Under the pieces are notes generated by a model that saw only the letters and a program-made list of their open reading frames with translations, was not told the origin of the DNA and ran no database searches. This document shows positions 33,536 through 52,990 of a stretch of DNA of 64,000 bases, piece by piece. Each line of letters begins with the position of its first letter. Within the stretch, counting starts at the first letter, position 1. The position numbers and the translations under genes are program-made. Location: contig CAVPYB010000001.1 in assembly GCA_963709875.1 (NCBI GenBank), positions 209,806 to 273,805 on the forward strand, given 5' to 3'. The DNA comes from an uncultured Chloroflexia bacterium (GTDB taxonomy: Bacteria; Chloroflexota; Anaerolineae; Anaerolineales; UBA4823).

Positions 33536-33658
<123 letters not shown>

Positions 33659-33681
33659 GGTTCCTGAAGCCTGTCTTTATG

Positions 33682-33712
33682 CCCTTTCTGCATGCCGGAG
33701 AGGGTATTTTTT
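33682..33712 (+). terminator. Riboswitch expression-platform terminator
   Basis: CCCTTTC-tgcatgccg-GAGAGGG followed by TATTTTTT. The 3' strand of P1 (GAGAGGG, 33654-60) can alternatively pair with CCCTTTC as an antiterminator. Confidence 0.75.
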
Positions 33713-33726
33713 ATCATGGAGGAAAT

Positions 33727-34956
33727 ATGAGTACTACGTTTATGAGTTCGCCCAGCCTGCTGTTCACGTCCGAATCGGTGACGGAAGGGCATCCGGATAA
33801 GATTTGCGACCAGATCAGCGATGCTGTGCTGGACGCTTGTCTGGAGCAAGACCCCGCTTCCCGGGTGGCCTGCGAAACAGCCACCAAGACCGGATTTGTG
33901 ATGTTGCTGGGAGAGATCACTACTCGTGCCAGCATCAACTATGATGAGCTGGTGCGCCAGGTAGTCAACGAGATCGGCTACGACAGCAGCGAGAAAGGTC
34001 TGGATGGCAGCAGCTGCGGTGTCCTGGTGGCGATCGCCCGCCAGTCCGGCGATATTGCCCTGGGAGTTGATAAGGCGCTGGAAGCCAAGACCGGCGAGAT
34101 GAGCGAGGCGGAGGTCGAGTCGATCGGCGCCGGTGACCAGGGGATGATGTTCGGTTATGCCTGCAATGAGACACCCAGCCTGATGCCCATGCCGATTTAC
34201 CTGGCGCATAAGCTGGCTTTGCGGCTGACCGAAGTGCGCAAGGATGGCACGCTGCCGTGGCTGCGCCCGGATGGTAAGACGCAGGTCACTGTGGAGTACA
34301 GCTACGGGCGTCCGATGCGGGTCGCTACGGTGCTGATCAGCACCCAGCACGCTCCGGAGATCAGCCAGGAAGAGATCCGCGCTGCGCTGATCGAGCACGT
34401 CATCGATCCGGTAGTACCGGCTGAGCTGCTGGACGGCAGCCCGAAGATCTATGTCAACCCGACCGGGCGCTTCGTGATCGGCGGACCGCAGGGAGATTCG
34501 GGGCTGACCGGGCGCAAGATTATCGTCGACACCTACGGAGGCATGGGCCGTCATGGCGGCGGCTGTTTCAGCGGCAAAGACCCGACGAAAGTGGACCGCT
34601 CGGCGGCTTACGCAGCCCGCTGGGCAGCCAAGAACGTGGTCGCTGCCGGGCTGGCGGAGCGCTGCGAGATCCAGGTTGCTTACGCCATCGGCGTCGCGCA
34701 CCCGCTGAGCGTCAATGTGGAGACTTTTGGTACAGGCAGCATCCCGGATGAGCAGATCGCTGCGCTGGTGCTGGAGCACTTCGACCTGCGCCCGGGGGCC
34801 ATCATCCGAGACCTGGACCTGCGCCGCCCGATCTACCGCCAGGTGGCAGCCTACGGGCACTTCGGCCGCGAGGACCTGGACCTGCCCTGGGAGCGCACCG
34901 ACAAAGCAGAACTGCTGCGAGAGGCAGCCCGGAGCAGCGCCACGGTGGGTGTCTAG
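33727..34956 (+). CDS. metK: S-adenosylmethionine synthetase
   Basis: [56 protein letters not shown] precedes the ATG at 33727. Confidence 0.95.
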
Positions 34957-38860: not shown

Positions 38861-40099
38861 AGGGCAAACGCATCTTAATTCTCCATCTGAGTGAAACCGA
38901 CCAGGACCTTGAGCAGGTAATCGTGGTTCCATCCTGCCAACAGGCGTTTGCCCTTGATGCCACGCTGGCAGGTTATCTCCTGCTTGAGCAAGTTCAGGGC
39001 GATATGTCGCAGCAGGGCGAAGTTCTCCGGTCCATGATCTTTGCGCACTCGGCAGCGGTCTTCGTCGAAGGCAAGATCCAGCGTCCAGTGCAGCTCATTC
39101 TCCGAGCGCACGGCCCCCAGGAGGCGTTTGGCTCCGGTGATACTGGCGATATGATAGCGGTCTTGGCTACTTTTCTCTTCACCGATCCAGCGCTGAGAGC
39201 GAATGCGGGACACGGTGGTCAAGTTCTTCCAGTTAGCAAAGCCGCGCAAGTAGCGCAAGACTTCAGGGTCGGAAATCGTCCAGCATTCGCGGATCTCGAT
39301 ACGCCCATGATCCTTGTTGACCGTCTTCTCATAGTCGAAGGCATAGGCTTGGTACTGGCTGTCTTCCAGATCGGCAAATACATGTTCGACATCTTCGTAG
39401 AGGTTGCCCTGGTTTTCCTTCAAGGAGAGCACATACTCCGCTTCTCGCTCGATAATCTTTTCGGCAATCTCGGTTTGACAGCCCATCGCATCGATGGTCA
39501 CAATGCAGCCCGCAACTTCCAAAACGTCTAAAAGCTGGGGAATGGCCGTGATCTCGTTCGACTTCTCGTCCACTTTGACCTGGCCCAGCACCAGGCGGTT
39601 GGCGCTGGCCCAGGCACTGACCATGTCGATGGCCATTTTGCCAATCCCTTTGTCATGCGAACGCCGCAGCACTTTGCCATCGATCGCAATCACCTGCCCG
39701 CCAATCACCTCAGCTACCGCATTCATCCAGCGCAGAAAACAGGTTTGGAACTGCTCCGGGTCCAGGCGGGCAAACACCCGGGTGAAGGTGTCATGCGAAG
39801 GGATGCCGTTGGGCACCTCCAGAAACGTCTGGAACCAGCCGATCCGGGCTTTGCCGAACTCTTCGACATCTTCCCAGTTGTCGGCTCCGGCAATCACCGC
39901 ACAGATGGCAATCACCAGAATATCCAGCAGCTTGTGCAACTTGGTGCGATCGATGCGCGGATCAGTCAAGTTGCCAAAATGGCTTTCGAGCGTTGGCAGA
40001 ATTTCGTCTTCCATGTCTTTTTCTCCCAGGTAGTATGACCTGGTATGATTAGCCAGGAAGATCGTTCTTGTCTAGATAAATTTAGATGCGTTCACCCTA
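38861..40099 (-). mobile_element. ISAs1-family insertion sequence with an 11-bp target-site duplication
   Basis: Inverted repeats AGGGCAAACGCATCTTAATT (38861-80) and AATTTAGATGCGTTCACCCT (40079-98). The direct repeat GATTAAGAACC flanks the element at 38850-60 and 40100-10. Confidence 0.85.
38875..40014 (-). CDS. ISAs1-family (H-repeat-associated) transposase, intact
   Basis: HFGNLTDPRIDRTKLHKLLDILVIAICAVIAGADNWEDVEEFG.., IAIDGK.LRRSHD, VTIDAMGCQ, HWTLDLAFDEDRCRVRKDHGPENFALLRHIALNLL. Confidence 0.9.
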   Translation of the reverse strand: MEDEILPTLESHFGNLTDPRIDRTKLHKLLDILVIAICAVIAGADNWEDVEEFGKARIGWFQTFLEVPNGIPSHDTFTRVFARLDPEQFQTCFLRWMNAVAEVIGGQVIAIDGKVLRRSHDKGIGKMAIDMVSAWASANRLVLGQVKVDEKSNEITAIPQLLDVLEVAGCIVTIDAMGCQTEIAEKIIEREAEYVLSLKENQGNLYEDVEHVFADLEDSQYQAYAFDYEKTVNKDHGRIEIRECWTISDPEVLRYLRGFANWKNLTTVSRIRSQRWIGEEKSSQDRYHIASITGAKRLLGAVRSENELHWTLDLAFDEDRCRVRKDHGPENFALLRHIALNLLKQEITCQRGIKGKRLLAGWNHDYLLKVLVGFTQMEN

Positions 40100-40177: not shown

Positions 40178-40249
40178 GGGCGCGTAGCTCAATGGTAGAG
40201 CAGTGGCCTTTTAAGCCATTGGTTGCAGGTTCGAGCCCTGCCGCGCTCA
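40178..40249 (+). tRNA. tRNA-Lys (anticodon UUU)
   Basis: Manual cloverleaf: acceptor GGGCGCG/CGCGCTC, D arm GCTC-AATGGTA-GAGC, anticodon arm GTGGC-CTTTTAA-GCCAT, variable loop TGGTT, T arm GCAGG-TTCGAGC-CCTGC, discriminator A. No encoded CCA. Confidence 0.95.
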
Positions 40250-40252
40250 CTG

Positions 40253-40279
40253 ACCCCCATACCTGGGGGTTATTTATTT
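40253..40279 (+). terminator. Terminator hairpin directly after tRNA-Lys
   Basis: ACCCCCA-tacc-TGGGGGT followed by TATTTATTT. Confidence 0.6.
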
Positions 40280-40400
40280 CGACATCCCGTATATGGCGGC
40301 TCTTGCTTGGGAATCTTCGAGTTTATCAATTAAAACCATGGTTTTGGCCCAGGAAAATTATTCTTTATCCAATGTGCTTGACCAGCGGAACTTATCGCTT

Positions 40401-40430
40401 GTCAACATCAGTCAACATCAGTCAACGCCA
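40401..40430. repeat. 10-bp tandem iteron-like repeat
   Basis: GTCAACATCA GTCAACATCA GTCAACGCCA (then AGCAAC), 150 nt downstream of the tRNA. Confidence 0.8.
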
Positions 40431-40691
40431 AGCAACAGATCAAGAAAGCACACCCATTAGGATAAACTCCGTCCGTGGTTCCGGACAAGATGAGTATTGA
40501 TCTGAAAGAGCACGATATCCTTTGCATTTACCCTGACTTGTAAGAGTATGTAGGTCCGACGAAGCAGTGTGGATACTGTTGCAGGGCGATTAATGAGTCA
40601 GCTTGATTTGTATATGTTTCTAATAACTGAGGTTTCTGTATTGTTCGATTCTCGCACAATCCACTGAACATAAGATTCCAGTAGCAGCAAA

Positions 40692-40724
40692 CATGACACA
40701 TCCTTGAATTCGGGATGTGTCATG
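40692..40724 (-). terminator. 12-bp perfect hairpin downstream of the small minus-strand ORF
   Basis: CATGACACATCC-ttgaattcg-GGATGTGTCATG. On the minus strand it is followed by TTTGCTGCT, a weak U-tract. Confidence 0.4.
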
Positions 40725-40746
40725 GACCAAAAATATATCAGCAAAT

Positions 40747-40953
40747 TCACGCAGGATCACGATCGGTCATCTTACCTCCAGCTTCCTGGGTTTGTTGATC
40801 AAGAAATTGCATCAACGCTTTCATATCTGCAAACCCATTTCTTTTGCCGGTATGAGGATCCTCAAGAGAAGCCCGCCAGATCCCATCGCCGTTCTGCTTT
40901 ACAAGCCACAAACGTAGTAGATAGGAGAGATAGCGATGTTTGCCCGGCTTCAT
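40747..40953 (-). CDS. Small conserved hypothetical protein (RLW...WRASLEDPHTG..GFA motif)
   Basis: MKPGKHRYLSYLLRLWLVKQNGDGIWRASLEDPHTGKRNGFADMKALMQFLDQQ. I recognise the motif as a recurrent small ORF type but cannot name a family. Start moved to the M at 40953. Confidence 0.45.
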   Translation of the reverse strand: MKPGKHRYLSYLLRLWLVKQNGDGIWRASLEDPHTGKRNGFADMKALMQFLDQQTQEAGGKMTDRDPA

Positions 40954-40969
40954 CAGCCACCTCACAACC

Positions 40970-41737
40970 TCAAGGGTTATATTTTCCAATACCAGCCAGG
41001 ACGTTTACGCGATCTTCACAAAGATCGGTGCCAATAACTTGCATGCGGAGTGAAATTGGTTTGTTGTTTTCAGTTGTCACATAAGCCTCATAGGTTGAGG
41101 TTTGGCCACTGCACCCAGCATCAAATGTTACCTTTCCTGCATCAAAGTTGTAAGTGCCAGAGTCTATCTGCCCAATGTTTTTCGACCCAGAAATGACCCG
41201 GTAGGCTCCATCTGCATCGAATTCAATCTTCAACCCCCCTTGTGGGTACCACCAAGTACCGACGATGTCATTAATCGTATTGGCGAGTGACTTTATTGGT
41301 GTGGGAAGTGGTGGAGGAAATTTCGCTAAAGAATCTGGAGCTGTAGTGAAGGTATAGGCCTGGATTTTTCCATTTTTAATCGTGGCGACCCACTCTCCTT
41401 CGATGAAGTCTACACCCATTGCTTGCAATCCTTCATCGGTATATGTAGAAATACAGGTCATGGTATCGCTCACAAATTTACAGTCCCTTAAAGATCCTGA
41501 ACCTATTCCAGAAGCAATTATCTCGTACCAGCTGCGAATTTCAGAGTGACCATTGTAAACACCGTCTCCTTCGGCAGGAGGGATAATGGTTACCTCCGCA
41601 TCTTCTGCCAGGTAAGAGAGTGCTGCATTAATTTCGCCTTTGTTCAAGGCTTCCTGCCAAGAATTGACCAAATCCTGGGTTGAAGGGCTGCATGCTGCAA
41701 TCAGGATGACAAAAAATATAAGTAACGTTATTTGTTT
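40970..41737 (-). CDS. Lipoprotein with an NTF2/SnoaL-like domain
   Basis: MKQITLLIFFVILIAAC (signal plus lipobox). The N-terminal ~110 aa resemble the SnoaL/NTF2 fold pattern. Function unknown. Confidence 0.5.
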   Translation of the reverse strand, partial: KQITLLIFFVILIAACSPSTQDLVNSWQEALNKGEINAALSYLAEDAEVTIIPPAEGDGVYNGHSEIRSWYEIIASGIGSGSLRDCKFVSDTMTCISTYTDEGLQAMGVDFIEGEWVATIKNGKIQAYTFTTAPDSLAKFPPPLPTPIKSLANTINDIVGTWWYPQGGLKIEFDADGAYRVISGSKNIGQIDSGTYNFDAGKVTFDAGCSGQTSTYEAYVTTENNKPISLRMQVIGTDLCEDRVNVLAGIGKYNP

Positions 41738-41870
41738 CATGGGATCCTCCAATCTGAAAGTCTAATTTTTTGACGCATTTTCGCCCTTATAATAACAATT
41801 AGCTGTTGGGAAAACGTGGGGTAAATACAACCTCTGATATTAATATGAATTACGTAGTTGGAAGGATGAT

Positions 41871-41916
41871 GGGGATGTTTGGGCGGACGTCGCCCGCCCG
41901 AACATCCCTGATTTTT
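41871..41916 (+). terminator. Strong orphan plus-strand intrinsic terminator upstream of the STAND gene
   Basis: 16-bp stem GGGGATGTTTGGGCGG / CCGCCCGAACATCCCT with two G-U pairs and a 7-nt loop, followed by GATTTTTCC. No plus-strand gene lies upstream of it. Confidence 0.6.
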
Positions 41917-42042
41917 CCTTAAACTGCGTAAGTCCTAATTAATTGAATTCGTTTATTAAATTGGTGAAACAAATATCTGGAGGTGCAGAAGTATCCCTGT
42001 ATAATTAACTCCAGGTCCACGTTTCTCACTTTTGAGGCGCAC

Positions 42043-45000
42043 ATGAAAACCTTAATAATTTCTGTGCTTGGGTCTCTACAAGTTGTTACAACAACGCCGA
42101 TCCAGAACAAGTTTGAGTCGAACAAAGTACGCGCCCTCCTGGCATATCTTGTTATCGAAATGGACCGGCCGCATCATCGCGAGGTGCTGGCCGATATGCT
42201 CTGGCCTGAAAGCTCGACTTTGACAGGACTGGCGAATCTTCGATACGCCCTGGCGGACCTCCGCAAAGTTATCGGAGATCATGATGCGAATCCCCCCTAC
42301 CTCTTGGTCAGCCGCGGAAATCTGCAATTTAACTCCTCGAGTAATTTTGAACTAGACGCCTCTCAATTTGCTAATTTTCTAAATACGAAAGATATTGAGA
42401 AACTCAAGCAAGGCATTGCGCTCTATCAGGGTGATTTCCTTAGCGGATTTCCTTCCATAGAGAGCAATATGTTCGAAGAGTGGCTCCTGCTCAAGCGCGA
42501 ACATTTCAAAGAGCTAGCCATCGAAGCCTTGCGCCTCATTGCTGACTATCACGAACATCGCGGAGAATACCAGCAAGCAATGCCATTTACCCGCTACCAG
42601 ACGGAGCTTGAACCCTGGCTCGAGGAAGCCTACCAGCAGTTGATGCGCTTACTCGCATTGGACGGTCAACGAAGTGCCGCGCTTGCCCAATACGAGATCT
42701 GCCGCCGTTCACTGATTTCTGAATTAGATGTTGAGCCAAGCGATGAAACGATCCAACTATACGAATCAATACGTGACGGGACTTTTAAAAAAGTTCCTCA
42801 CCTACTAAAACGAGAGCCTCCCGCGCCTGGCGAGCCGCCCTTCAAGGGACTTCAATATTTTGATGAGTCAGATGCAGATATATTCTTCGGTCGTGAAGCA
42901 TTGATTTCCCATTTGGTGGGACAGATTCAGTATCGGGAAAAATCAAGACGGGTGCGGTTTTTGGCAATCATTGGGGCATCAGGTAGCGGCAAATCATCAA
43001 TAATTAGAGCCGGATTGATTCCAGCCTTGAAACGAGACAGCAGGCCCCGCCTTGTTCAAATTATCACTCCAACAGAATACCCTCTTGATTCATTATCTTC
43101 CTGCGACATAGACAGCCCAACAGCAAAAGGACGACTTTTCTTCATTGTGGATCAATTCGAGGAGCTGTTTACTCTATGTCAGAATGAAAGTGAGCGCAGG
43201 TTTTTCATCGATAAATTGCTTAATGCCGCTGAAGAAGGATTGGCTTTTGTAGTCATCGCCCTTCGAGCAGACTTTTATGCAGCATGCGAACCTTATGAAA
43301 ACCTTCGCAGGATCCTGAGCCAGAACCAGGAATACATCGGTCCAATGAAGGCCAGCGAGCTAAGCCGGGCGATTGAAGAACCGCCCCGTGTTTATGGATG
43401 GCTGTTCGAACCGGGTCTGGCGGATTTACTGCTCCGCGACATTGGAGCAGATGGTGATCGCTCTCCAGAACCTGGTGCGCTCCCATTGCTGTCTCACGCG
43501 CTGTTGGAAACCTGGCATCGACGAAGTGGGCGAATGCTTACCCTGGCTGGCTACGCGGAATCAGGTAGTATCCATGGAGCCATCGCGAAAACCGCTGAAT
43601 TTGTATATGCCCAGCTATCAGAAAGCGAACAGTTCATCGCCCGCAATATCTTCCTGCGCCTCACAGAATTAGGAAAAGGAATGCAAGAAACTCGTCGCCG
43701 GGTTTTATTAAGCGAAATTATCCCGGCATCCAAATCAACATCGACCCAGGGTAAATCAATTGAAATCGTTTTGAAAATGCTTTCAGACGCGCGGCTTGTC
43801 ACCACAACAGAGGTGACCGCCGAGGTAGCACATGAAGCCTTGATCCGAGAGTGGGCCAGGCTTCACGAATGGCTGTCAGAGAATCGGGAATGGCTGCAAT
43901 TGCATCGTCATATCACAGAGTCAGCACAGGAATGGGAGTCGCAAGGGTATGATCCAGGTTTAGTCTATCGAGGTACTCGACTGGTACAGGCTCTGGAGTG
44001 GGCTAAAGCTCATTTGGAGGATTTGAATTTATTGGAGCGAGAATTTTTAGAAACCTCCAAATCTATAGAAGAAAAAGCAGCGGCTGAACGGGAGGAGCAA
44101 CGACAACGCGAATTGGAAGCTGCGCGCAAGTTAGCTGAATCTGAAAGAGAGCGTGCGGAAGGACAAACGCGAGCAGCCAGGCAGTTACGCCAGCGCGCCT
44201 TTTATTTAGCAAGTTTACTGTTTCTCTCACTGATCTTGGTCATCACTGCTTTTGTACAGCGTAATACTGCCAACAGACAGGCCCATCTGGCCTCAGCGCG
44301 TGAATTAGCCCTCGCATCAATCAATAATTTAGATAAGGACGCAGAACTCAGCATCCTTCTGGCATTAGAGGCAGTTTCGGAATCCAGATTAGCACGCGTA
44401 CCGGTTCCTTACCAGGTGCAAGATGCACTTCATAAAGCAATCCAAAATTCTAGGATCCATTACACCCTAGCAAAGCATAGTGGTGCTGTTGTAGCAGTAA
44501 CATACAGCCCCGATGGAAAGTTGTTGGCAACAGCCGGCAGTGATAAAAAAGTAATTCTTTGGGAAGCTGCAACGGGAAAAGAGCTGATGACTTTATATGG
44601 TCACAGCCAAGGATTGGAGGATATCGCATTTAGCCCGGACGGCAGGTATTTAGCGACAGCCAGCGATGACAAATCAGTCAAGCTGTGGAATCCTTTAAAT
44701 GGGCAAGAGTTGCGTTCGTTCACCGGCTTTACAGATGTCATTTGGAAAATCTCCTTTAGTGCAGATAGTAATTTCCTGGCAACCGGTGGCAACGAGACTG
44801 CCATCGTATGGGATATAAATACCGGACAATCAATTCTGATTTTAGAAGCGCAACACGCTCCTATCGCTTTTAGCCCCCTTGGGAAGTACCTTGCAACTTC
44901 TGGGGATGATGGCACAACAAAGTTATGGGATACAGATTCGTGGGAGGAATATCTTTCTCTTCCCTATGCCGCGAATGCGCTTGCCTTCAGTCCAGATGAG

Positions 45001-46344
45001 GAACGCCTTGTAACAGCAATGGAAGAGTTTAAAGTCTGGGATGTTCTAACCGGCGAGGAACTGATGACCCCGGCAGAATTTAAAGCTGTCGTCATAGGCA
45101 TCGAGTTTAATCCGGATGGAAGTCAGTTGGCGGCGGGAAGCCAGGATGGGACAGTGGGCATATGGGATTCGCAGACTGGAAAACGTTTGTTTATTCTGGC
45201 AGGTCATGCTGGTGCGGTCAATGATGTATCATTCAACCCAGCATGTACCGCTCCTCCAGTAGCTGCATTCGAATGGTGTGGAGGTTGGCTTGCCACGGCC
45301 AGCCGTGATGGAACGGCAAAAGTTTGGGATGTCTCTCCGGCTGGTAGTCGTGAGCTAGCTACGCTGCCGGGATTTTCTGGGTATCTCTTTAGTGAAACAC
45401 AACTATCTACCAATAAATTTATCAGCCAAAATGAGGTAGAAGTCAAAACATGGGATATATCGCTGGATGGAGCGAGCCGGTGGATTTCAAACAGCCTAAT
45501 CAGCCATCCGGCACCAATAATTCTTGGGAATAGCAGTATAGATGGATCGTTTATCGTTACCGTGGATATAGATAACACTGTGGAAGTCTGGAATGCAAAG
45601 GCGAGTAAAGAGGTGGCTTCTTTTCTGATAGATCAGAGCTCGCCATTGGCTGGTGTCGCCGTAAATTCTACAGGAACGCAAGCAACGACAGTAGGAAACG
45701 ACGGGATAGCAAAGGTATGGGACGCTACTACAGGGCGCGAATTGTTGAATTTGACAGGATTTGCTGGCGACATTGTTGGCGTTGCCTTCAGTCACGATGG
45801 AAAGCTAATTGCCATAAGTAAGTATGATGGTCCTGTCAAAGTATGGGAAATCGCAACTGGAAAGGAGGTATTAACCCTAATTGGCCACACACTGCCTGTC
45901 TATGTGATTTCTTTTAGTCCAGATGGTCAGCGAATTGCTACCGCCGGTATGGATCAGACCGCCAGAATATGGGATGTTCAAAGTGGGAACAATCTGTTCA
46001 AGCTAGAAGGACATACAGCTTCAGTCATCGCCTTGGCATTCAATACAGATGGATCTCTTCTGGTTACTGGCAGTCACGATGGAACAGCGAGAATATGGGA
46101 CATTTCGAATGGACCACAGGGAGGTGAGGAGTTACTCACTTTAATAGGGCATGATGGTTACATTGATTTCGTTTCATTCACCCCTGGGGGAAAACGTTTC
46201 GCTACAGGAAGTTTACAAGATGGAACGATACGCCTTTATCTTCTGGACATCATGGAAGTGGCTGAATTGGCACAAGCGCGACTTACCCGCTCACTGGCTC
46301 TAAAGGAGTGTCAGAAGTACCTGCATCTGGCAACTTGTCGCTAA
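42043..46344 (+). CDS. SARP (OmpR-type wHTH + BTAD) - STAND P-loop NTPase - TM helix - WD40 propeller protein, 1433 aa, intact
   Basis: N-terminus VLGSLQV...NKVRALLAYLVIE..HREVLADMLWP + BTAD (IALYQGDFL..EAYQQLMRLLALDGQRSAALAQYEICRRSL). PFKGLQYFDESDADIFFGRE. Walker A GASGSGKSS and Walker B FFIVDQFEE. Coiled coil, then TM AFYLASLLFLSLILVITAFVQ. Many WD40 units (GHSQGLEDIAFSPDGRYLATASDDKSVKLWN etc.). Confidence 0.85.
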   Translation: MKTLIISVLGSLQVVTTTPIQNKFESNKVRALLAYLVIEMDRPHHREVLADMLWPESSTLTGLANLRYALADLRKVIGDHDANPPYLLVSRGNLQFNSSSNFELDASQFANFLNTKDIEKLKQGIALYQGDFLSGFPSIESNMFEEWLLLKREHFKELAIEALRLIADYHEHRGEYQQAMPFTRYQTELEPWLEEAYQQLMRLLALDGQRSAALAQYEICRRSLISELDVEPSDETIQLYESIRDGTFKKVPHLLKREPPAPGEPPFKGLQYFDESDADIFFGREALISHLVGQIQYREKSRRVRFLAIIGASGSGKSSIIRAGLIPALKRDSRPRLVQIITPTEYPLDSLSSCDIDSPTAKGRLFFIVDQFEELFTLCQNESERRFFIDKLLNAAEEGLAFVVIALRADFYAACEPYENLRRILSQNQEYIGPMKASELSRAIEEPPRVYGWLFEPGLADLLLRDIGADGDRSPEPGALPLLSHALLETWHRRSGRMLTLAGYAESGSIHGAIAKTAEFVYAQLSESEQFIARNIFLRLTELGKGMQETRRRVLLSEIIPASKSTSTQGKSIEIVLKMLSDARLVTTTEVTAEVAHEALIREWARLHEWLSENREWLQLHRHITESAQEWESQGYDPGLVYRGTRLVQALEWAKAHLEDLNLLEREFLETSKSIEEKAAAEREEQRQRELEAARKLAESERERAEGQTRAARQLRQRAFYLASLLFLSLILVITAFVQRNTANRQAHLASARELALASINNLDKDAELSILLALEAVSESRLARVPVPYQVQDALHKAIQNSRIHYTLAKHSGAVVAVTYSPDGKLLATAGSDKKVILWEAATGKELMTLYGHSQGLEDIAFSPDGRYLATASDDKSVKLWNPLNGQELRSFTGFTDVIWKISFSADSNFLATGGNETAIVWDINTGQSILILEAQHAPIAFSPLGKYLATSGDDGTTKLWDTDSWEEYLSLPYAANALAFSPDEERLVTAMEEFKVWDVLTGEELMTPAEFKAVVIGIEFNPDGSQLAAGSQDGTVGIWDSQTGKRLFILAGHAGAVNDVSFNPACTAPPVAAFEWCGGWLATASRDGTAKVWDVSPAGSRELATLPGFSGYLFSETQLSTNKFISQNEVEVKTWDISLDGASRWISNSLISHPAPIILGNSSIDGSFIVTVDIDNTVEVWNAKASKEVASFLIDQSSPLAGVAVNSTGTQATTVGNDGIAKVWDATTGRELLNLTGFAGDIVGVAFSHDGKLIAISKYDGPVKVWEIATGKEVLTLIGHTLPVYVISFSPDGQRIATAGMDQTARIWDVQSGNNLFKLEGHTASVIALAFNTDGSLLVTGSHDGTARIWDISNGPQGGEELLTLIGHDGYIDFVSFTPGGKRFATGSLQDGTIRLYLLDIMEVAELAQARLTRSLALKECQKYLHLATCR

Positions 46345-46502
46345 CGAAATCAATCGCCATATTGGTGATGAATCGGGGAGCAGACATAAAAGGTAATCAT
46401 CAAAACTTCACAGCTGAACCCCCGGACTTTGAAAAAATATTTCAAAAGTAGCTTCGACCACAATTTAAGTCAATGTACTTCCTGTCAAGTAGTACAATTC
46501 TT

Positions 46503-46800
46503 CTAAAATGATGATCTTTCTCTAAGTCATTGTGAAGCGAATCCATTGGTACTTCCACGTTGACAGACCTTTACTAAAAATATCCAAGAGACTTATTTCT
46601 CCATTCGTCCAATGGACTGGGGCAATTCTGCCAGGCTCTTGGTTGGATGAAGCGGTTACAGGGATCTCGTCCTTTTAAGCCATTGGTTGCAGGTTCGAGC
46701 CCTGCCGCGCTCACTCAATCTCCACTTTGACCCCGAAACGGGGCGTAAAACGAGTGATTTCTCCCACTAAGACCTGCCAGTTGGCGGGTTTTTGTGTTTA
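46503..46800 (+). repeat. ~300-bp duplicated module, copy A, containing the tRNA-Lys 3' 45-mer (46671-46715)
   Basis: It aligns with 52683-52990 on both sides of the exact 45-mer. It contains TAAAAT, nested helices (CCAAGAG/CTCTTGG) and a terminator CCTGCCA-gt-TGGCGGG-TTTTTGTGTTT. Confidence 0.9.
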
Positions 46801-46908
46801 ACTTCTGGGTGAAAATAAATTACCAGAGTAAGTTGCAAATAACGTATCTCTTGTTTGGCGGTTAGAATTAATTTATTAAGAACATATCACTCTTTTTGTC
46901 TGGTAATG

Positions 46909-46936
46909 CACAACAATAAGGTGTATAATTGTTGTG
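46909..46936 (+). promoter_or_regulatory. Promoter -10 plus palindromic operator of the RHH/MazF pair
   Basis: Inverted repeat CACAACAAT (46909-17) / ATTGTTGTG (46928-36) embraces TATAAT (46924-29). Confidence 0.5.
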
Positions 46937-46973
46937 TAGTTCAGGCATGCGGGCAAAAGGAGGCGATCCAAGT

Positions 46974-47207
46974 ATGCACCGTACTCAAATCTTACTCGAA
47001 CAAGAACAGCACAAAGCTCTCACAGCCATAGCCCAGCGCGAGAATCGCAGCCTGTCCGATGTGGTCAGGGAGATGTTGCGGAAGCAGCTTGAAGAACGTA
47101 AAAAAATGGAGCTGACCGCAGCCGCGAGGGCATTACTGCCTGATTACCAGGGCGATTCTGAATTGACCGCTTTCAACGCGCTCGATGCAGAGGATTTCCA
47201 TGCGTAA
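46974..47207 (+). CDS. Ribbon-helix-helix (CopG/MazE-like) antitoxin
   Basis: MHRTQILLEQEQHKALTAIAQRENRSLSDVVREMLRK shows the RHH pattern. RBS AAAGGAGG. The stop overlaps the toxin start (ATGCGTAA). Confidence 0.8.
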   Translation: MHRTQILLEQEQHKALTAIAQRENRSLSDVVREMLRKQLEERKKMELTAAARALLPDYQGDSELTAFNALDAEDFHA

Positions 47208-47538
47208 AGGCGAAGTGTGGCTCATAAATCTTGATCCAACCATTGGAGCAGAGATCCAAAAAACGCGCCCGGCGATCATCGTCAATGAAGACGCTATTGG
47301 CATTTTACCGCTGCGAGTCATCGTCCCGTTGACGGACTGGAAAGAGCACTACCAGATCGCCCCGTGGATGGTGCGGATCGATCCGAACACGTCGAACGGC
47401 TTGAGCAAACCTACCGCCGCAGATGCATTTCAAATCCGCTCGGTGTCCCAGGTCAGGTTTATCAACCGCCTGGGTCGAATTTCTAGTGAACAGCTTTTGG
47501 AAATCTTGAAAGCCATTCAAACCGTCATTGGCACTTGA
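47200..47538 (+). CDS. mazF: MazF/PemK-family toxin endoribonuclease
   Basis: MRKGEVWLINLDPTIGAEIQKTRPAIIVN..LSKPTAADAFQIRSVS matches the PemK/MazF pattern. Confidence 0.85.
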   Translation: MRKGEVWLINLDPTIGAEIQKTRPAIIVNEDAIGILPLRVIVPLTDWKEHYQIAPWMVRIDPNTSNGLSKPTAADAFQIRSVSQVRFINRLGRISSEQLLEILKAIQTVIGT

Positions 47539-47661: not shown

Positions 47662-49620
47662 CATAACTCGACGTTCGCTCATTTTTTAGCACAAAAACCA
47701 AATTTCTGGTATGCTCGCCAGCATGGAGAAAATCGAAGTTGGCGAGGTACAGGTTGAAAGACTGGATGATATACCTGTCATCTTTGGACATTTACACAAG
47801 ATTCACATACAAGGGGTCATTGATCGAGAGATCGAAACCCACGGCAACTGGGAAGGGCTGAGCCCTGGATGGCTGATCACGATCTGGCTGGTCCACATTC
47901 TCTCGGAACACAACCACAACATGGATCGGGTGCAGGAATGGGTAGCCAAGCGGTTACAGGTCTTGCGAGCATTGACGGGGCAAGTCCTGACAGAGCTGGA
48001 CTTTACCGACGACCGGCTGGCATTGTGCTTGCGGAAGCTGAGCCAGAGTGAAACCTGGCAATAGATCGAAGCTCAACTCGGCGTGCATCTGGTGCGGGTG
48101 TACCGGCTAGGAGCAAAGCCGACCGTGCGGCTGGACGCCACCACGGGGACGGTAAACCACGACCCGGATAAACACACCCTTTTCCAAGTTGGTAAGGCCA
48201 AGAATGGGCAGTATGAGACCCAATACAAGCTGATGCTGGCCAGCCTGGATCCCCTGGGGCTGCCCTTGGCGGTGGACGTTGTTTCCGGGGAGCGTGCCGA
48301 TGATCCGCTCTATCTGCCTTGTTACCAGCGGGTGAAGCAGGTGCTCTTTGAAAACGGTGTCCTGGTGGTGGGCGACAGCAAGATGAGTGCCTTCTTTACT
48401 CGAGCAGCCCTTGCCGCTGGCGAGGATTTCTACCTAACGCCGCTGGCCCATCTCAAGGATGAGCCCGGGCTGCTGGAAGCGCTGCTGACGCCCTGGATGG
48501 AGCGGGAAGATGAAATGGAATGCATTTTCCTGCCTGAAGATGGCCCTAATCCGGACCCGACGCTGGCCATTGGGCATGGTTTTGAGGTCAACAGAAACCA
48601 AGAAGTCGATGTGGATGGTCAGGGTGCGGCCTGGACGGAGCGGCTTCTGGTGGTACGTTCTCACCAATATGAGAAGACCATCAAGAAAGGGCTGCATCAT
48701 CGCTTGGAGAAAGCGGAGCAAGCGCTGAAAGGCTTGACCCCAGCTCGAAGCCGTGGCAAGCGTCAAATCGAAGATGAAGCCAGCCTGCTGGCAGCCATCC
48801 AGCGGATCGAAGAGAAGTACCGAGTGGCAGGGCTTTTCGAGTATCACTATGAGCAAGAGGTTTCTGAGCAGCAGGTGCGAGCCTACGGTGATCAGCCTGC
48901 TCGCACAGAACGCCAGGTGCGCTTTCAATTGACGGTCGAACGCAATCCGGAAGCCATCGCAGCCGCTGAATTCAACGCCGGATGGCGTATCTACCCACCA
49001 ACGCACCCGCTGAACAGCTGCCCTTGGACCAGGCTGTGCTAGCCTACCGGGACCAGTACATCGAGGAGAACTTCTTCCGCCGTTTGCAGGGCAAGATCCT
49101 ATCTATCACCCCAGTCTATGTGCAGCGTGATGACCATGCCAAAGACTTGTTTCATCTGCTGACCCTGGCCGCAAGACTGCTGGCCCTGGGCGATCATCTG
49201 GCCAAAGCAAATCTGGTCCAAGCGCAAGCCGAACTGGCGGGGATCTATCCCGGCAACCCAATGCGCAGTACTGCCACGCCAACCACGGAGCGCATGCTGG
49301 CCGCTTTCGATAACATCAACCCGACCGTCATACCGGTTGCGGGTCAACTGCACTATCAGATCACACCCCTCACAGCCGTGCAGCTGCGTATCCTGGAACT
49401 CTGGGAGCTGCCCGATACCCTGTACACGCAATTTTGCGCATAAAAACCCAGACAGTAGTGCGTCAGTTCCTTGTATGTGATTGTTAATGTCCCGTTTTTC
49501 AACCTTTTCGTGGGTATTTGCTGGCCTGGACGATGGATTTCAAACTCAGATTGTTTCGTCCATTTCTGCTAACGCCCGAATCCGTTTTTTCGCTTTCAAA
49601 ATCAGCGAACGTTCAGTATG
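47662..49620 (+). mobile_element. IS1634-like (IS4 superfamily) insertion sequence with a decayed transposase
   Basis: Imperfect ~29-bp terminal inverted repeats: CATAACTCGACGTTCGCTCATTTTTTAGC (47662-) versus the reverse complement of GCTTTCAAAATCAGCGAACGTTCAGTATG (-49620). No clear target duplication seen. Confidence 0.6.
47711..49443 (+). pseudogene. IS1634-family transposase with one in-frame TAG (48062-64) and one frame break (~48990)
   Basis: ORFs 47711..48064 and 48083..49042 are in the same frame, separated only by TAG (..SETWQ*IEAQLG..). The C-terminal part (..YLPTNAPAEQLPLDQAVLAYRDQY..) is in ORF 48982..49443. Confidence 0.8.
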
Positions 49621-52682: not shown

Positions 52683-52990
52683 TAGAATGAACTCAATCGC
52701 TGTCTTTCGCTGAGTCATTGTGAAGCAAATCCATTGGTTGCTTCCGCGTTGACAGACCTTTACTAAAAATATCCAAGAGACTTATTTCTCCATTCGTCCA
52801 ATGGACTGGGGCGATTCTGCCAGGCTCTTGGTTGGATGAAGCGGTTACAGGGATCTCGTCCTTTTAAGCCATTGGTTGCAGGTTCGAGCCCTGCCGCGCT
52901 CACTCTATTTCCACTTTTGCCCCTAAAAGGGCGTAAAACGAGTGATTTCTCCCACTAAGACCTGCCAGATGGCGGGTTTTTGTGTTTAAT
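52683..52990 (+). repeat. ~300-bp duplicated module, copy B, containing the tRNA-Lys 3' 45-mer (52860-52904)
   Basis: See copy A. TGGTAGAAT at 52681-88. Terminator CCTGCCA-ga-TGGCGGG-TTTTTGTGTTT. Confidence 0.9.

What the first reader, a model, noticed from the sequence alone, without database searches (positions are those of the whole stretch)
42043..46344. Island-borne 1433-aa SARP/BTAD - STAND NTPase - transmembrane - WD40 protein
An AfsR-like DNA-binding output (OmpR-type wHTH + BTAD) is fused to a P-loop STAND module (GASGSGKSS; FFIVDQFEE). After the STAND module come a coiled coil, one clear TM helix (AFYLASLLFLSLILVITAFVQ) and a large WD40 array. A TM helix between the NTPase and the repeat sensor would place the propeller outside the cytoplasm. 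Classical cytosolic STAND/NLR-like sensors do not have this arrangement. The gene is the main cargo of att-bounded module 1 and has a much lower GC than the core. It could be a transmembrane signalling STAND that directly switches transcription, or a conflict/defence-type sensor.
Basis: partly seen in the sequence, partly recalled or inferred. Interest (0 to 1): 0.65.

Follow-up and report, generated by a model that had tools for sequence, protein, structure and literature searches.

The report
Transmembrane STAND regulator with target operon
A 6.5-kb mobile module carries a membrane-spanning, ATP-switch transcription activator whose sensor propellers are predicted to lie outside the cell, together with the small operon it most likely turns on. 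The design is common in Chloroflexota, Actinomycetota and Cyanobacteria but has not been studied.

Summary
Window 42043-46344 (+) encodes a 1433-aa protein with an OmpR-type wHTH and BTAD (a SARP module), an nSTAND1 NTPase, a charged helix, one strongly hydrophobic helix, and two seven-bladed WD40 propellers.

The arrangement is not peculiar to this gene. In 78 of 85 nSTAND1 relatives from three phyla, a hydrophobic helix lies between the NTPase and the WD40 array. The basic residues sit on the NTPase side.

One encodes a lipoprotein (40970-41740). The other encodes a 68-aa protein of a large unannotated family, here called RLW (40750-40953).

Between the regulator and this operon lie two 11-nt-spaced direct repeats, 9 nt upstream of an extended -10. 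This is the published SARP promoter layout. The same layout recurs in 36 of 39 dereplicated SARP/RLW loci.

The best reading is a transmembrane, AfsR-like STAND switch that activates its neighbouring operon. The design crosses AfsR/afsS with ToxR/CadC. No support was found for a defence role.

The three genes and the box fill an island bounded by 45-nt tRNA-Lys repeats. A 98%-identical copy sits in a different context elsewhere. I rate it a new variant of a known kind.

The parts
40178..40250 (+). tRNA-Lys (anticodon UUU), the integration site
   Evidence: Found by ARAGORN and by Rfam RF00005 at 74.6 bits.
40207..40251 (+). Left 45-nt att repeat, formed by the 3' part of the tRNA
   Evidence: Exact copies lie at 46671-46715 and 52860-52904, with 0 expected in shuffles.
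40747..40953 (-). RLW small protein gene (68 aa; MKPGKHRYLSYLLRLW...WRASLEDPHTG...), second gene of the target operon
   Evidence: The ORF is. Homologues lie next to the regulator in L001, L002, L004, L005, L008 and L087. The family has 6372 cluster representatives, with no Pfam, NCBIfam or PADLOC model. In 45 of 57 cases a divergent SARP gene lies within 3 kb. The AF2 model is beta-beta-beta-alpha at pLDDT 82, with no significant PDB fold match.
40970..41740 (-). Lipoprotein gene (256 aa; signal and lipobox MKQITLLIFFVILIAAC), first gene of the target operon. The N-half is weakly SnoaL/NTF2-like. The C-half is a ~110-aa domain shared with neighbours of homologues.
   Evidence: Translation is. 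SnoaL_2 scores E 1e-3, below the Pfam cut-off. The L001 orthologue is 66% identical and sits in the same position. The C-domain is shared with lipoproteins in L002, L003 and L005. In 11 of 13 nSTAND1-type loci a secreted protein gene occupies this position.
41789..41794 (-). -10 hexamer TATTAT, preceded by TGT (extended -10), reading towards the lipoprotein/RLW operon
   Evidence: The sequence is. A TAnnnT hexamer lies exactly 9 nt after the 3' repeat in 19 of 32 loci.
41804..41825 (-). Putative SARP box: two 11-nt direct repeats, TTTACCCCACG and TTTTCCCAACA
   Evidence: Conserved in the intergenic alignment with L001-L003. An exact GTGGGG-N5-GTGGGG occurs in only 4 of the 86 loci held at that point, each just upstream of an orthologous regulator. 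In dereplicated SARP/RLW intergenic regions, offset 11 gives 190 self-matches against a shuffle mean of 15.
41870..41910 (+). Terminator-like hairpin (17-bp stem plus T-run) within a ~180-nt leader insertion upstream of the regulator gene
   Evidence: Found. The insertion is seen relative to L001 and L003. Its function was not tested.
42043..42792 (+). SARP module (aa 1-250): OmpR-type wHTH plus BTAD
   Evidence: Pfam BTAD at aa 118-244. Matches to AfsR and EmbR among solved structures. NCBIfam AfsR model at aa 4-319, far below its cut-off.
42838..43956 (+). nSTAND1 NTPase module (aa 266-638), with Walker A GASGSGKSS and Walker B VDQFEE
   Evidence: PF20703 at E 3.6e-113, covering the whole profile. 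The motifs are invariant in alignment A1.
44026..44196 (+). Charged E/R/Q-rich helix (about aa 662-718) ending in the basic flank RQLRQR
   Evidence: The sequence is. In the AF2 model it is continuous with the TM helix.
44197..44259 (+). Predicted transmembrane helix (aa 719-739)
   Evidence: KD19 is 2.56. A helix at the equivalent position occurs in 78 of 85 relatives. K+R averages 5.54 before it and 2.14 after it.
44260..44448 (+). Juxtamembrane helical linker (aa 740-802), containing the conserved ...ELSILLALEAV... motif
   Evidence: AF2 helices span 685-761, 767-783 and 790-802. The motif appears in the A5 consensus.
44449..45330 (+). WD40 propeller 1 (blades 1-7, aa ~803-1096), predicted to be extracytoplasmic
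   Evidence: Blade parsing, the AF2 model, and Foldseek matches to 2ymu and to the Apaf-1 tandem propellers.
45331..46242 (+). WD40 propeller 2 (blades 8-14, aa ~1097-1400)
46243..46344 (+). C-terminal helical tail (aa 1401-1433) and stop codon
   Evidence: AF2 helices span aa 1403-1413 and 1420-1427.
46671..46715 (+). Right 45-nt att repeat closing module 1. It lies inside a 288-nt repeat (46515-46801) that recurs at 52703-52989.
   Evidence: The whole of 40207-46821 recurs at 98.4% identity in L087, in a different context.

Best explanation
The gene encodes a single-pass membrane protein with its N-terminus in the cytoplasm. The SARP DNA-binding module and the nSTAND1 NTPase are cytoplasmic. 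They connect through one long helix (aa 685-761, including the membrane span) to two seven-bladed WD40 propellers outside the cytoplasmic membrane.

Proposed sequence of events:
1. An extracytoplasmic cue binds or releases the propellers.
2. This relieves autoinhibition of the STAND module, which exchanges nucleotide and self-associates in the plane of the membrane.
3. Two SARP modules come side by side on the two 11-nt direct repeats at 41804-41825.
4. They recruit RNA polymerase to the -35-less, extended -10 promoter of the divergent operon.
5. The operon encodes a secreted lipoprotein and the 68-aa RLW protein.

The module works like AfsR activating afsS. The difference is that the sensor is placed across the membrane, as in ToxR/CadC-type one-component receptors.

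The regulator, its box and its target operon form a self-contained 6.5-kb cargo. It is bounded by 45-nt repeats of tRNA-Lys and has no integrase of its own.

Shown here: the domain content, the intact NTPase motifs, the hydrophobic helix and its charge bias, the two propellers, the conserved gene pairing, the direct repeats and their fixed distance to a -10, and the island boundaries.

Inferred: actual membrane insertion, DNA binding to the box, signal flow from outside to the NTPase, oligomerisation, and what the cue and the RLW protein do.
For: Architecture: Pfam, PDB sequence matches and AF2. Walker A/B and other NTPase motifs are invariant among relatives.

Topology:
- KD19 is 2.56.
- 78 of 85 nSTAND1 relatives with a long C-terminus have a KD19 >= 2.0 helix within 160 aa of the NTPase end.
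- K+R in the 15 aa before the helix averages 5.54, against 2.14 after it. The count is greater before the helix in 75 cases and never smaller.
- The helix keeps its position when the N-terminus is XRE-HTH, kinase or cyclase instead of SARP.
- Predicted periplasmic WD40 domains after a single span are documented for Planctomycetota Ser/Thr kinases (PMC11032199).

Target promoter:
- The minus strand reads CCCCACG-N4-CCCAACA, then 9 nt, then TGT-TATTAT, then GGAGGA and the lipoprotein ATG.
- The box is the best conserved stretch of the intergenic alignment.
- An exact GTGGGG-N5-GTGGGG occurs only upstream of orthologous regulators (4 of 86 loci).
- In 39 dereplicated SARP/RLW intergenic regions, 7-mer self-matches number 190 at offset 11 and 58 at offset 22. 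Other offsets give about 6-42, shuffles average 15 (maximum 37), and coding controls give 7.
- 36 of 39 loci carry such repeats, with clade-specific sequences.
- The distance from the 3' repeat to a TAnnnT hexamer is exactly 9 nt in 19 of 32 loci.
- Published SARP promoters have direct repeats 11 or 22 bp apart, with the 3' repeat 8 bp from the -10. AfsR SARP domains bind them as a side-by-side dimer (PMC10936776).

Partnership:
- RLW genes have a divergent SARP gene within 3 kb in 45 of 57 testable loci.
- In nSTAND1-type loci a secreted or lipoprotein gene lies between the two in 11 of 13 cases.

Module: 40207-46821 recurs at 98.4% identity in L087 with different flanks. The protein there is identical at 1410 of 1433 residues.
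Against: - No dedicated topology predictor and no experiment was available. Membrane insertion rests on hydrophobicity, charge bias and conservation.
- The window's upstream repeat has two mismatches to the consensus heptamer (CCCAACA against CCCCACG). The single window match to the degenerate pattern is not significant on its own (0.42 expected). The case rests on cross-locus conservation.
- Many compared loci are related, so the counts are not independent events, although the repeat sequences differ between clades.
- A ~180-nt insertion with a strong terminator-like hairpin lies in the regulator's leader. Its effect on expression is unknown.
- AfsR's oligomeric state and DNA binding were reported not to change with ATP (PMC10936776). 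The oligomerisation step is therefore not established even for the best-studied relative.
- A DNA-binding domain tethered behind a ~470-aa NTPase and helix at the membrane must still reach the chromosome. ToxR/CadC show this is possible, but they lack such a spacer.
- No ligand is known.
Confidence: 0.6

Rival explanations
1. Same membrane-tethered regulator, but activation works by regulated proteolysis. The extracytoplasmic signal triggers cleavage near or within the membrane span. A soluble SARP-nSTAND1 fragment is released and then acts like cytosolic AfsR.
For: The architecture, the box and the partner genes fit this reading equally well. A long exposed helix flanks the span. One orthologous operon (L008) encodes a secreted HExxH-motif protein in place of the lipoprotein. 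Release would solve the problem of reaching DNA from the membrane.
Against: No site-2-protease-type gene is conserved in the neighbourhoods examined. No cleavage motif was identified. ToxR/CadC-type activators work while still tethered (PMC5430869).
Confidence: 0.15
2. A conflict/defence NLR-like sensor. The propellers detect an invader or a non-self cue, and the module triggers a protective or suicidal response. The lipoprotein and RLW proteins would be the effectors.
For: nSTAND1 was defined in predicted counter-invader systems (PMC8195603). The gene rides on a tRNA-borne island next to toxin-antitoxin genes. The L087 copy lies near AbiE and PIN/Phd genes. A PHROG family (phrog_923) matches the NTPase region at E 3e-55.
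Against: PADLOC gives only weak P-loop-level matches for the regulator (best E 1.7e-4 over 27 residues), and nothing for the two partners. The N-terminal output is a transcription activator, not a nuclease, TIR, caspase or pore. Homologue neighbourhoods lack recurrent defence genes and instead share a fixed promoter and target. An extracytoplasmic sensor would not meet intracellular phage proteins.
Confidence: 0.08
3. The propellers are not a ligand sensor but an anchor or partner-binding platform. The co-encoded lipoprotein would be the real sensor or a ToxS-like co-regulator. It would bind the propellers outside the membrane, so the operon forms a feedback loop.
For: Secreted or lipoprotein genes accompany the TM-type regulators in 11 of 13 loci, against 6 of 18 for other SARP types. 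The lipoprotein and the propellers are predicted to share a compartment. ToxR needs the periplasmic partner ToxS (PMC7496328 abstract).
Against: The secreted protein varies between orthologous loci: SnoaL-plus-C-domain lipoproteins, unrelated secreted proteins of ~150 aa, and an HExxH protein. This fits a target better than an obligate partner. The loci counted are phylogenetically related. No interaction test was possible.
Confidence: 0.1
4. The hydrophobic helix is not a membrane span. The protein would be a cytosolic AfsR-like regulator with WD40 in place of TPR, and the helix would be buried in an oligomer.
For: The closest WD40 structures (Nostoc 2ymu, Apaf-1) come from proteins treated as cytosolic. 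Published STAND surveys describe sensing 'inside cells' (PMC13581612). No topology predictor was run.
Against: KD19 is 2.56 over 19 residues with no charged residue in 21. A basic cluster lies on the N-side only, in 75 of 78 relatives. In the AF2 model the segment lies within a single long helix (aa 685-761) ahead of the propellers. The co-encoded partner carries an export signal.
Confidence: 0.07

Closest known systems
AfsR / afsS of Streptomyces coelicolor (a 'large' SARP: SARP-NOD-TPR)
   Same: N-terminal wHTH plus BTAD, followed by a STAND-type NTPase and a C-terminal repeat domain. The N-terminus aligns to AfsR structures 8hvr, 8k60 and 8jke. The target promoter has two 11-nt direct repeats overlapping the -35 region at a fixed short distance from the -10. 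The main target is a neighbouring gene for a very small protein (PMC10936776).
   Different: The NTPase belongs to the nSTAND1 clade. The NCBIfam AfsR model scores 37.7 bits against a cut-off of 1430. The sensor is a double WD40 propeller, not TPR. A membrane span separates the NTPase from the sensor. RLW gave no hit in Pfam, NCBIfam, PADLOC or PHROGs; it was not compared with AfsS directly. The organism is probably a Chloroflexota member, not an actinomycete.
ToxR-like receptors (ToxR, CadC): membrane-bound one-component transcription activators
   Same: A cytoplasmic N-terminal OmpR-type wHTH, a single membrane span and an extracytoplasmic C-terminal sensor, all in one polypeptide that activates transcription directly (PMC5430869 and PMC7496328).
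   Different: Between the DNA-binding domain and the membrane this protein has a BTAD, a ~370-aa P-loop STAND NTPase and a ~55-aa charged helix. The sensor is a 600-aa tandem propeller. No sequence relationship beyond the wHTH fold class was tested.
nSTAND1 NTPases of predicted bacterial conflict systems (Kaur et al. 2021)
   Same: The same NTPase family: PF20703 at E 3.6e-113 over the full profile. The plan is N-terminal output, NTPase, then C-terminal repeat sensor.
   Different: Those systems were described with death-like adaptors or enzymatic effectors (PMC8195603). Here the output is a transcription activator with a recognisable target promoter. The papers read do not mention a membrane span between the NTPase and the sensor.
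Apaf-1 (AP-ATPase plus tandem WD40 propellers)
   Same: A STAND NTPase followed by two WD40 propellers. Foldseek E is 1e-37 to full-length Apaf-1.
   Different: Apaf-1 is cytosolic, has 7+8 blades (my own knowledge), a CARD output and no membrane span.
Single-pass Ser/Thr kinases with periplasmic WD40/TPR domains (Planctomycetota)
   Same: A cytoplasmic nucleotide-using output, one span, and WD40 repeats predicted to be outside (PMC11032199). The window's own second paralogue even carries a kinase domain.
   Different: Those kinases have no STAND NTPase and no DNA-binding output.

Membership tests
SARP family transcription activators | N-terminal OmpR-type winged helix-turn-helix followed by a BTAD domain | tested here: met
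   BTAD PF03704 scores 84.4 bits against a cut-off of 22.1. Residues 27-243 align to AfsR and residues 3-89 to the EmbR wHTH.
SARP family transcription activators | Target promoters with direct repeats spaced 11 or 22 bp apart, the 3' repeat about 8 bp from the -10 (PMC10936776) | tested here: met
   Two 11-nt repeats lie at 41804-41825, 9 nt from TATTAT. The 11-nt periodicity and the 9-nt spacing recur across loci. Actual binding was not tested.
SARP family transcription activators | Sequence-specific binding and RNAP recruitment by a SARP dimer | not testable with these tools
   Needs EMSA or footprinting and in vitro transcription.
AfsR equivalog (NCBIfam NF053617) | Full-length match above the curated cut-off (SARP-NB-ARC-TPR) | tested here: not met
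   37.7 bits against a cut-off of 1430, and only over residues 4-319. The protein works like AfsR but is not an AfsR orthologue.
nSTAND1 clade of STAND NTPases (PF20703) | Full-length match to the family profile above the gathering score | tested here: met
   379.5 bits against 27.1, covering profile positions 1-378 of 379.
nSTAND1 clade of STAND NTPases (PF20703) | Intact Walker A and Walker B motifs | tested here: met
   GASGSGKSS and VDQFEE are invariant in A1. NTP binding and hydrolysis were not tested.
STAND signalling NTPases in general | N-terminal output, central NTPase, then C-terminal repeat sensor. Ligand-dependent nucleotide switch and oligomerisation. | tested here: inconclusive
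   The domain order is met. The switch and the oligomerisation cannot be tested in silico.
ToxR-like membrane-bound one-component activators | Cytoplasmic N-terminal wHTH, single TM helix, extracytoplasmic C-terminal sensor | tested here: inconclusive
   The order of parts is met, and the topology is supported by hydrophobicity and charge bias. No experimental topology exists. The inserted BTAD and NTPase have no counterpart in ToxR/CadC, so this is an analogy, not a family assignment.
Known anti-phage defence systems (PADLOC-DB 2.0) | Significant match of any component to a defence-system model | tested here: not met
   The regulator gives only mad3, mad8 and AbiLi matches with E between 1.7e-4 and 9.3e-3, the best over 27 residues. 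RLW and the lipoprotein give none.
tRNA-integrated genomic island | Direct repeats derived from the tRNA 3' end that bound the element | tested here: met
   Exact 45-nt repeats lie at 40207, 46671 and 52860. The same unit sits in another context in L087.
tRNA-integrated genomic island | An element-encoded integrase | tested here: not met
   Pfam scans of 14 longer ORFs between 38.8 and 55.6 kb found no integrase or recombinase. The ORFs between 40252 and 40746 are all shorter than 60 aa and were not scanned. The module would need an integrase supplied in trans.

The most novel reading that the evidence does not exclude
The nSTAND1 clade as a whole would be a widespread, unrecognised class of transmembrane NLR-like one-component receptors. 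An extracytoplasmic WD40 (or other) sensor would drive a cytoplasmic STAND switch across a single helix. Outputs would be swappable: SARP, XRE or LuxR HTH, kinase, cyclase. In Chloroflexota, the SARP versions would act through a dedicated, very large family of small proteins (RLW; 6372 cluster representatives, no annotation). RLW would be the standard first target of SARP-STAND regulators, a functional counterpart of AfsS.
Probability: 0.4. Interest if true: 0.8.

Novelty: new variant of a known kind. Interest (0 to 1): 0.6.

Why it matters
STAND/NLR proteins are described as sensors of events inside the cell. If the predicted topology is right, a large bacterial clade places the repeat sensor outside the membrane and keeps the ATP switch inside. 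That combines the logic of a Toll-like receptor with that of an NLR in one chain.

This copy is well suited to experiments. The sensor, the switch, the DNA-binding output, the predicted operator and the target operon all lie within 6.5 kb, and the unit has moved between genomes as a block. It could be cloned whole with a reporter. That would let one ask how a signal crosses a single helix to a STAND NTPase.

The analysis also assigns a first genomic context to a large family of unannotated small proteins (RLW). It extends the SARP promoter grammar, known from actinomycete antibiotic regulators, to Chloroflexota.

Tried and rejected
- Exact-sequence look-up of the 1433-aa protein found nothing, so the source genome is not in that collection. 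The taxon (probably Chloroflexota, Anaerolineae-like) is inferred only from the taxonomy of homologues.
- PADLOC, PHROGs and NCBIfam scans of the three proteins gave no functional assignment beyond the domains.
- A Foldseek search of the RLW model against the PDB gave no match better than E 0.5. PUR-repeat, Cren7 and CarD-N resemblances were not significant and I do not rely on them.
- Literature searches found no description of this architecture or of a span between a STAND NTPase and its sensor. Searches covered nSTAND1, BTAD+WD40+STAND, STAND NTPase+transmembrane helix+WD40, and SARP+WD40+transmembrane+Chloroflexi. The library lacks most subscription papers.
- I considered whether the basic flank is a twin-arginine export signal. 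RR occurs before the helix in 61 of 78 relatives, but the window protein has RQLRQR and only 24 of 78 fit RR-x-hydrophobic-hydrophobic. The result is inconclusive and I dropped the idea.
- I looked for an integrase in both att-bounded modules and found none.
- I considered the conserved plus-strand TATAAT next to the box as the regulated promoter. Its distance to the repeats varies between orthologues (about 6 to 20 nt). The minus-strand -10 keeps a fixed 9-nt distance. The minus-strand operon is therefore taken as the target.
- The longer GTG start at 41983 was rejected because homologues align from the ATG at 42043.

Full report
**1. The observation**

The ORF list shows one long frame at 41983-46344 on the plus strand. 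The ATG at 42043 gives 1433 aa. Homologues align from exactly this methionine (MxxLSISxLG...), so it is the likely start.

Pfam assigns the following:
- aa 118-244 to BTAD (84 bits);
- aa 266-638 to nSTAND1, PF20703 (379.5 bits, whole profile);
- aa ~800-1400 to WD40 repeats and many propeller families.

The first 89 residues align to the wHTH of EmbR. Residues 27-243 align to the SARP module of AfsR structures.

The segment at aa 719-739 is by far the most hydrophobic in the protein. Its Kyte-Doolittle 19-residue mean is 2.56, and the next best segment scores 1.28.

An AlphaFold2 model of aa 684-1433, built on 46 aligned sequences, has mean pLDDT 91. It shows:
- one continuous helix from aa 685 to 761, comprising the charged helix, the hydrophobic segment and a juxtamembrane stretch;
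- two short helices;
- 56 strands, that is 14 blades.

Blade parsing and Foldseek matches to tandem seven-bladed propellers and to Apaf-1 agree on two seven-bladed propellers.

**2. The membrane span is a family trait**

A search with the N-terminal 800 aa found 7039 proteins at E <= 1e-10 among the 8000 candidates scored. Those that carry an organism name come mostly from Chloroflexota/Anaerolineae metagenome bins. Several sources already name them 'BTAD domain-containing putative transcriptional regulator' or 'WD40 repeat protein/DNA-binding SARP family transcriptional activator'.

In nearly all full-length hits the most hydrophobic 19-mer lies at the same place, after a basic xLRRRA flank. 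This holds even when the N-terminal domain is an XRE HTH, a kinase or an adenylate cyclase.

A scan of species-representative genomes found more than 580 loci. They come from Chloroflexota, Actinomycetota (Streptomyces, Amycolatopsis, Lentzea), Cyanobacteria (Nostoc, Calothrix) and a few other groups.

With my own profiles on the ORFs of the 87 sequences then held (86 loci and the window), I found the following:
- 78 of 85 nSTAND1 proteins with at least 150 aa after the NTPase have a KD19 >= 2.0 helix within 160 aa of the NTPase end. Most of them have WD40 after the helix.
- The 15 residues before the helix carry 5.54 K+R on average, against 2.14 after it.
- The count is higher before the helix in 75 of 78 cases and never lower.

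This is the positive-inside pattern expected if the NTPase side is cytoplasmic, which it must be in order to use ATP and reach DNA.

Predicted periplasmic WD40 domains after a single span have been reported for Planctomycetota Ser/Thr kinases (PMC11032199). No dedicated topology predictor was available, so insertion remains a strong inference and is not a demonstration.

**3. Two partner genes and a conserved operator**

Upstream and divergent from the regulator lie two genes that no library names.

The first, at 40970-41740 (-), encodes a 256-aa lipoprotein (MKQITLLIFFVILIAAC...). It has a weak SnoaL/NTF2-like N-half and a ~110-aa C-domain.

The second follows 16 nt later, behind its own Shine-Dalgarno sequence (read from the sequence). 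It lies at 40750-40953 (-) and encodes a 68-aa protein, here called RLW. Its core motif is RYxSYLLRLWQ...WRASLEDPHTGERxGF...L..FL, followed by an acidic tail.

The closest homologues of the regulator have the same neighbours:
- L001 has a 66%-identical lipoprotein plus RLW.
- L002 and L003 have lipoproteins that share the C-domain.
- L002, L004, L005 and L008 also carry RLW.
- L005 has a lipoprotein with the same C-domain motif by inspection.
- L006 has a SnoaL lipoprotein.

In L008 the secreted protein is unrelated and carries an HExxH motif, but RLW is still present.

A profile search shows that RLW is a large family: 6372 cluster representatives at E <= 1e-3 and 2739 at <= 1e-10. All named members are 'hypothetical'.

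A metagenome scan with the RLW alignment tested the gene linkage. Of 57 RLW genes with at least 900 nt of upstream sequence, 45 have a divergent SARP gene within 3 kb. My profile missed at least one further case, the L088 BTAD-AAA-TPR protein. Thirteen of these regulators are of the nSTAND1 type. Others are SARPs of about 600-1250 aa without nSTAND1. RLW is therefore a general partner of SARP regulators in these organisms.

**4. The promoter**

The intergenic alignment of the window with L001-L003 has one outstanding conserved block, GTGGGGAAAACGTGGGG. The exact pattern GTGGGG-N5-GTGGGG occurs in only 4 of the 86 loci then held, each time just upstream of an orthologous regulator. The window copy has one mismatch to this pattern.

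Read on the minus strand, the window sequence runs as follows:
- TTTACCCCACG and TTTTCCCAACA, two 11-nt direct repeats;
- GCTAATTGT, a 9-nt spacer whose last three bases form an extended -10 TGn;
- TATTAT;
- about 35 nt further on, GGAGGA and the lipoprotein ATG.

I then asked without prior assumptions whether SARP/RLW intergenic regions contain periodic repeats. In 49 regions, 7-mer self-matches (at most 1 mismatch) number 230 at offset 11, 70 at offset 22 and 31 at offset 33. Other offsets give 6-44.

After dereplication to 39 regions, the count at offset 11 is 190. Shuffles give a mean of 15 (sd 5.9, maximum 37), and coding DNA of the same loci gives 7. Of the 39 regions, 36 carry such repeats.

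The repeat sequences differ between clades (CCCCACG, CCTTGCG, CCTCACG, CCTTACG, TCTACG and others). This argues against simple shared ancestry of the DNA.

The distance from the CG that ends the 3' repeat to a TAnnnT hexamer is exactly 9 nt in 19 of 32 loci. Several of the remaining loci have a third repeat that my anchor missed.

This is the published SARP promoter grammar. The repeats are 11 or 22 bp apart and the 3' repeat lies 8 bp from the -10. In AfsR the box overlaps the -35, and SARP protomers bind side by side, one per repeat (PMC10936776). The repeats are oriented towards the lipoprotein/RLW operon. That operon is therefore the predicted direct target.

**5. The island**

The 3' 44 nt of tRNA-Lys(UUU) plus one base recur exactly at 46671 and at 52860. 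Module 1 (40252-46715) contains only RLW, the lipoprotein, the box and the regulator. Module 2 carries an RHH/MazF pair, a DUF4277/DDE transposase pair and a metallophosphoesterase.

Neither module encodes an integrase. Copies 2 and 3 of the repeat lie within a 288-nt repeat.

A 745-kb metagenome contig (L087) holds window 40207-46821 at 98.4% identity, and its regulator is identical at 1410 of 1433 residues. On the tRNA-proximal side it is joined to a module-2-like end instead of the tRNA. It lies near PIN/Phd, AbiE and IS66 genes.

The three-gene unit therefore behaves as a discrete, transferable block. Low GC is real for the island, but the 56-64 kb part of the window shares it.

**6. Mechanism**

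I judge the most likely mechanism to be a one-component transmembrane switch. An extracytoplasmic cue acts on the propellers. The 77-residue helix transmits the change. The nSTAND1 module changes nucleotide state and self-associates. Paired SARP modules then occupy the two repeats and activate the -35-less promoter.

The anatomy, the operator and the linkage are shown. Signal flow, oligomerisation, the cue and the role of RLW are inferred.

The variants I cannot exclude are release by proteolysis and a ToxS-like role for the lipoprotein. The defence reading has little support (neighbourhoods). The cytosolic reading conflicts.

**7. Comparison with what is known**

The protein works like AfsR/afsS but is not an AfsR orthologue. 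It resembles ToxR/CadC in topology only. It is a bona fide nSTAND1 member, a clade named in work on predicted conflict systems (PMC8195603).

Neither that paper, nor its 2020 predecessor, nor a 2026 survey of prokaryotic STANDs (PMC13581612) mentions a membrane span between NTPase and sensor in the passages I searched. The architecture is catalogued in sequence databases but, as far as the searchable literature shows, it has not been described or studied.

I rate it a new variant of a known kind. Interest is moderate to high, because the module is compact, mobile and directly testable.

Noticed in passing
window 2815-6850 (-): A second nSTAND1 paralogue lies in the higher-GC part of the window. 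ORF 4208-6850 encodes a protein kinase (aa 15-258), a LuxR/GerE HTH (287-342) and nSTAND1 (375-787). After a frame change within the charged-helix region, ORF 2815-4407 begins with a hydrophobic helix VVVFLLAALVSVGLTFVAI (KD 2.84) followed by WD40. It has the same transmembrane plan with a different output. It is either a pseudogene or contains a sequencing frameshift.
   Followed up: partly
window 40750-40953 (-), and loci L087-L168: The RLW small-protein family has 6372 cluster representatives and no Pfam, NCBIfam, PADLOC or PHROG model. Its predicted fold is beta-beta-beta-alpha. It is tightly linked to divergent SARP genes of several architectures. Some members have 2-4 tandem copies, and one 3802-aa protein (P0241) matches in 34 stretches.
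   Followed up: partly
window 41870-41910 (+): A 17-bp-stem, GC-rich hairpin with a T-run lies inside a ~180-nt insertion in the regulator's leader. The insertion is absent from the L001 and L003 orthologues. It could terminate or attenuate transcription entering the regulator gene, or it could be a small inserted element.
   Followed up: no
window 46515-46801 and 52703-52989: A 288-nt direct repeat (94.8% identical) contains att copies 2 and 3. The tRNA-Lys locus holds two tandem integrase-less modules. In L087 the module order differs, which suggests a recombination hot spot served by an integrase in trans.
   Followed up: partly
window 46929-47538 (+), 47711-49042 (+), 38875-40014 (-): An RHH antitoxin and a MazF/PemK toxin pair lie directly after module 1. 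A DUF4277 plus DDE transposase pair lies in module 2. A DDE_Tnp_1 transposase lies just upstream of the tRNA.
   Followed up: no
window 33536-33658 (+): A SAM riboswitch (RF00162, 85 bits) lies in front of the S-adenosylmethionine synthetase gene at 33640-34956.
   Followed up: no
L088 5133-8219; L106, L117, L124, L135, L152, L164: RLW genes also sit divergently next to large SARP proteins without nSTAND1 (for example BTAD-AAA_16/22-TPR, 894 aa). These pairs have the same 11-nt repeat promoters, often with no secreted-protein gene in between.
   Followed up: partly
window 42043-46344, aa 363-679: phrog_923, a phage/prophage protein family of unknown function, matches the NTPase region at E 3.2e-55. 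nSTAND1-like NTPases therefore also occur on phage genomes.
   Followed up: no
L001 8859-13162; L004, L005, L006 gene ends: Several homologues from long-read metagenome assemblies are split into two or three ORFs, at the NTPase in L001 and within the WD40 array in L004-L006. The cause may be assembly frameshifts or real decay in the repeat region.
   Followed up: no
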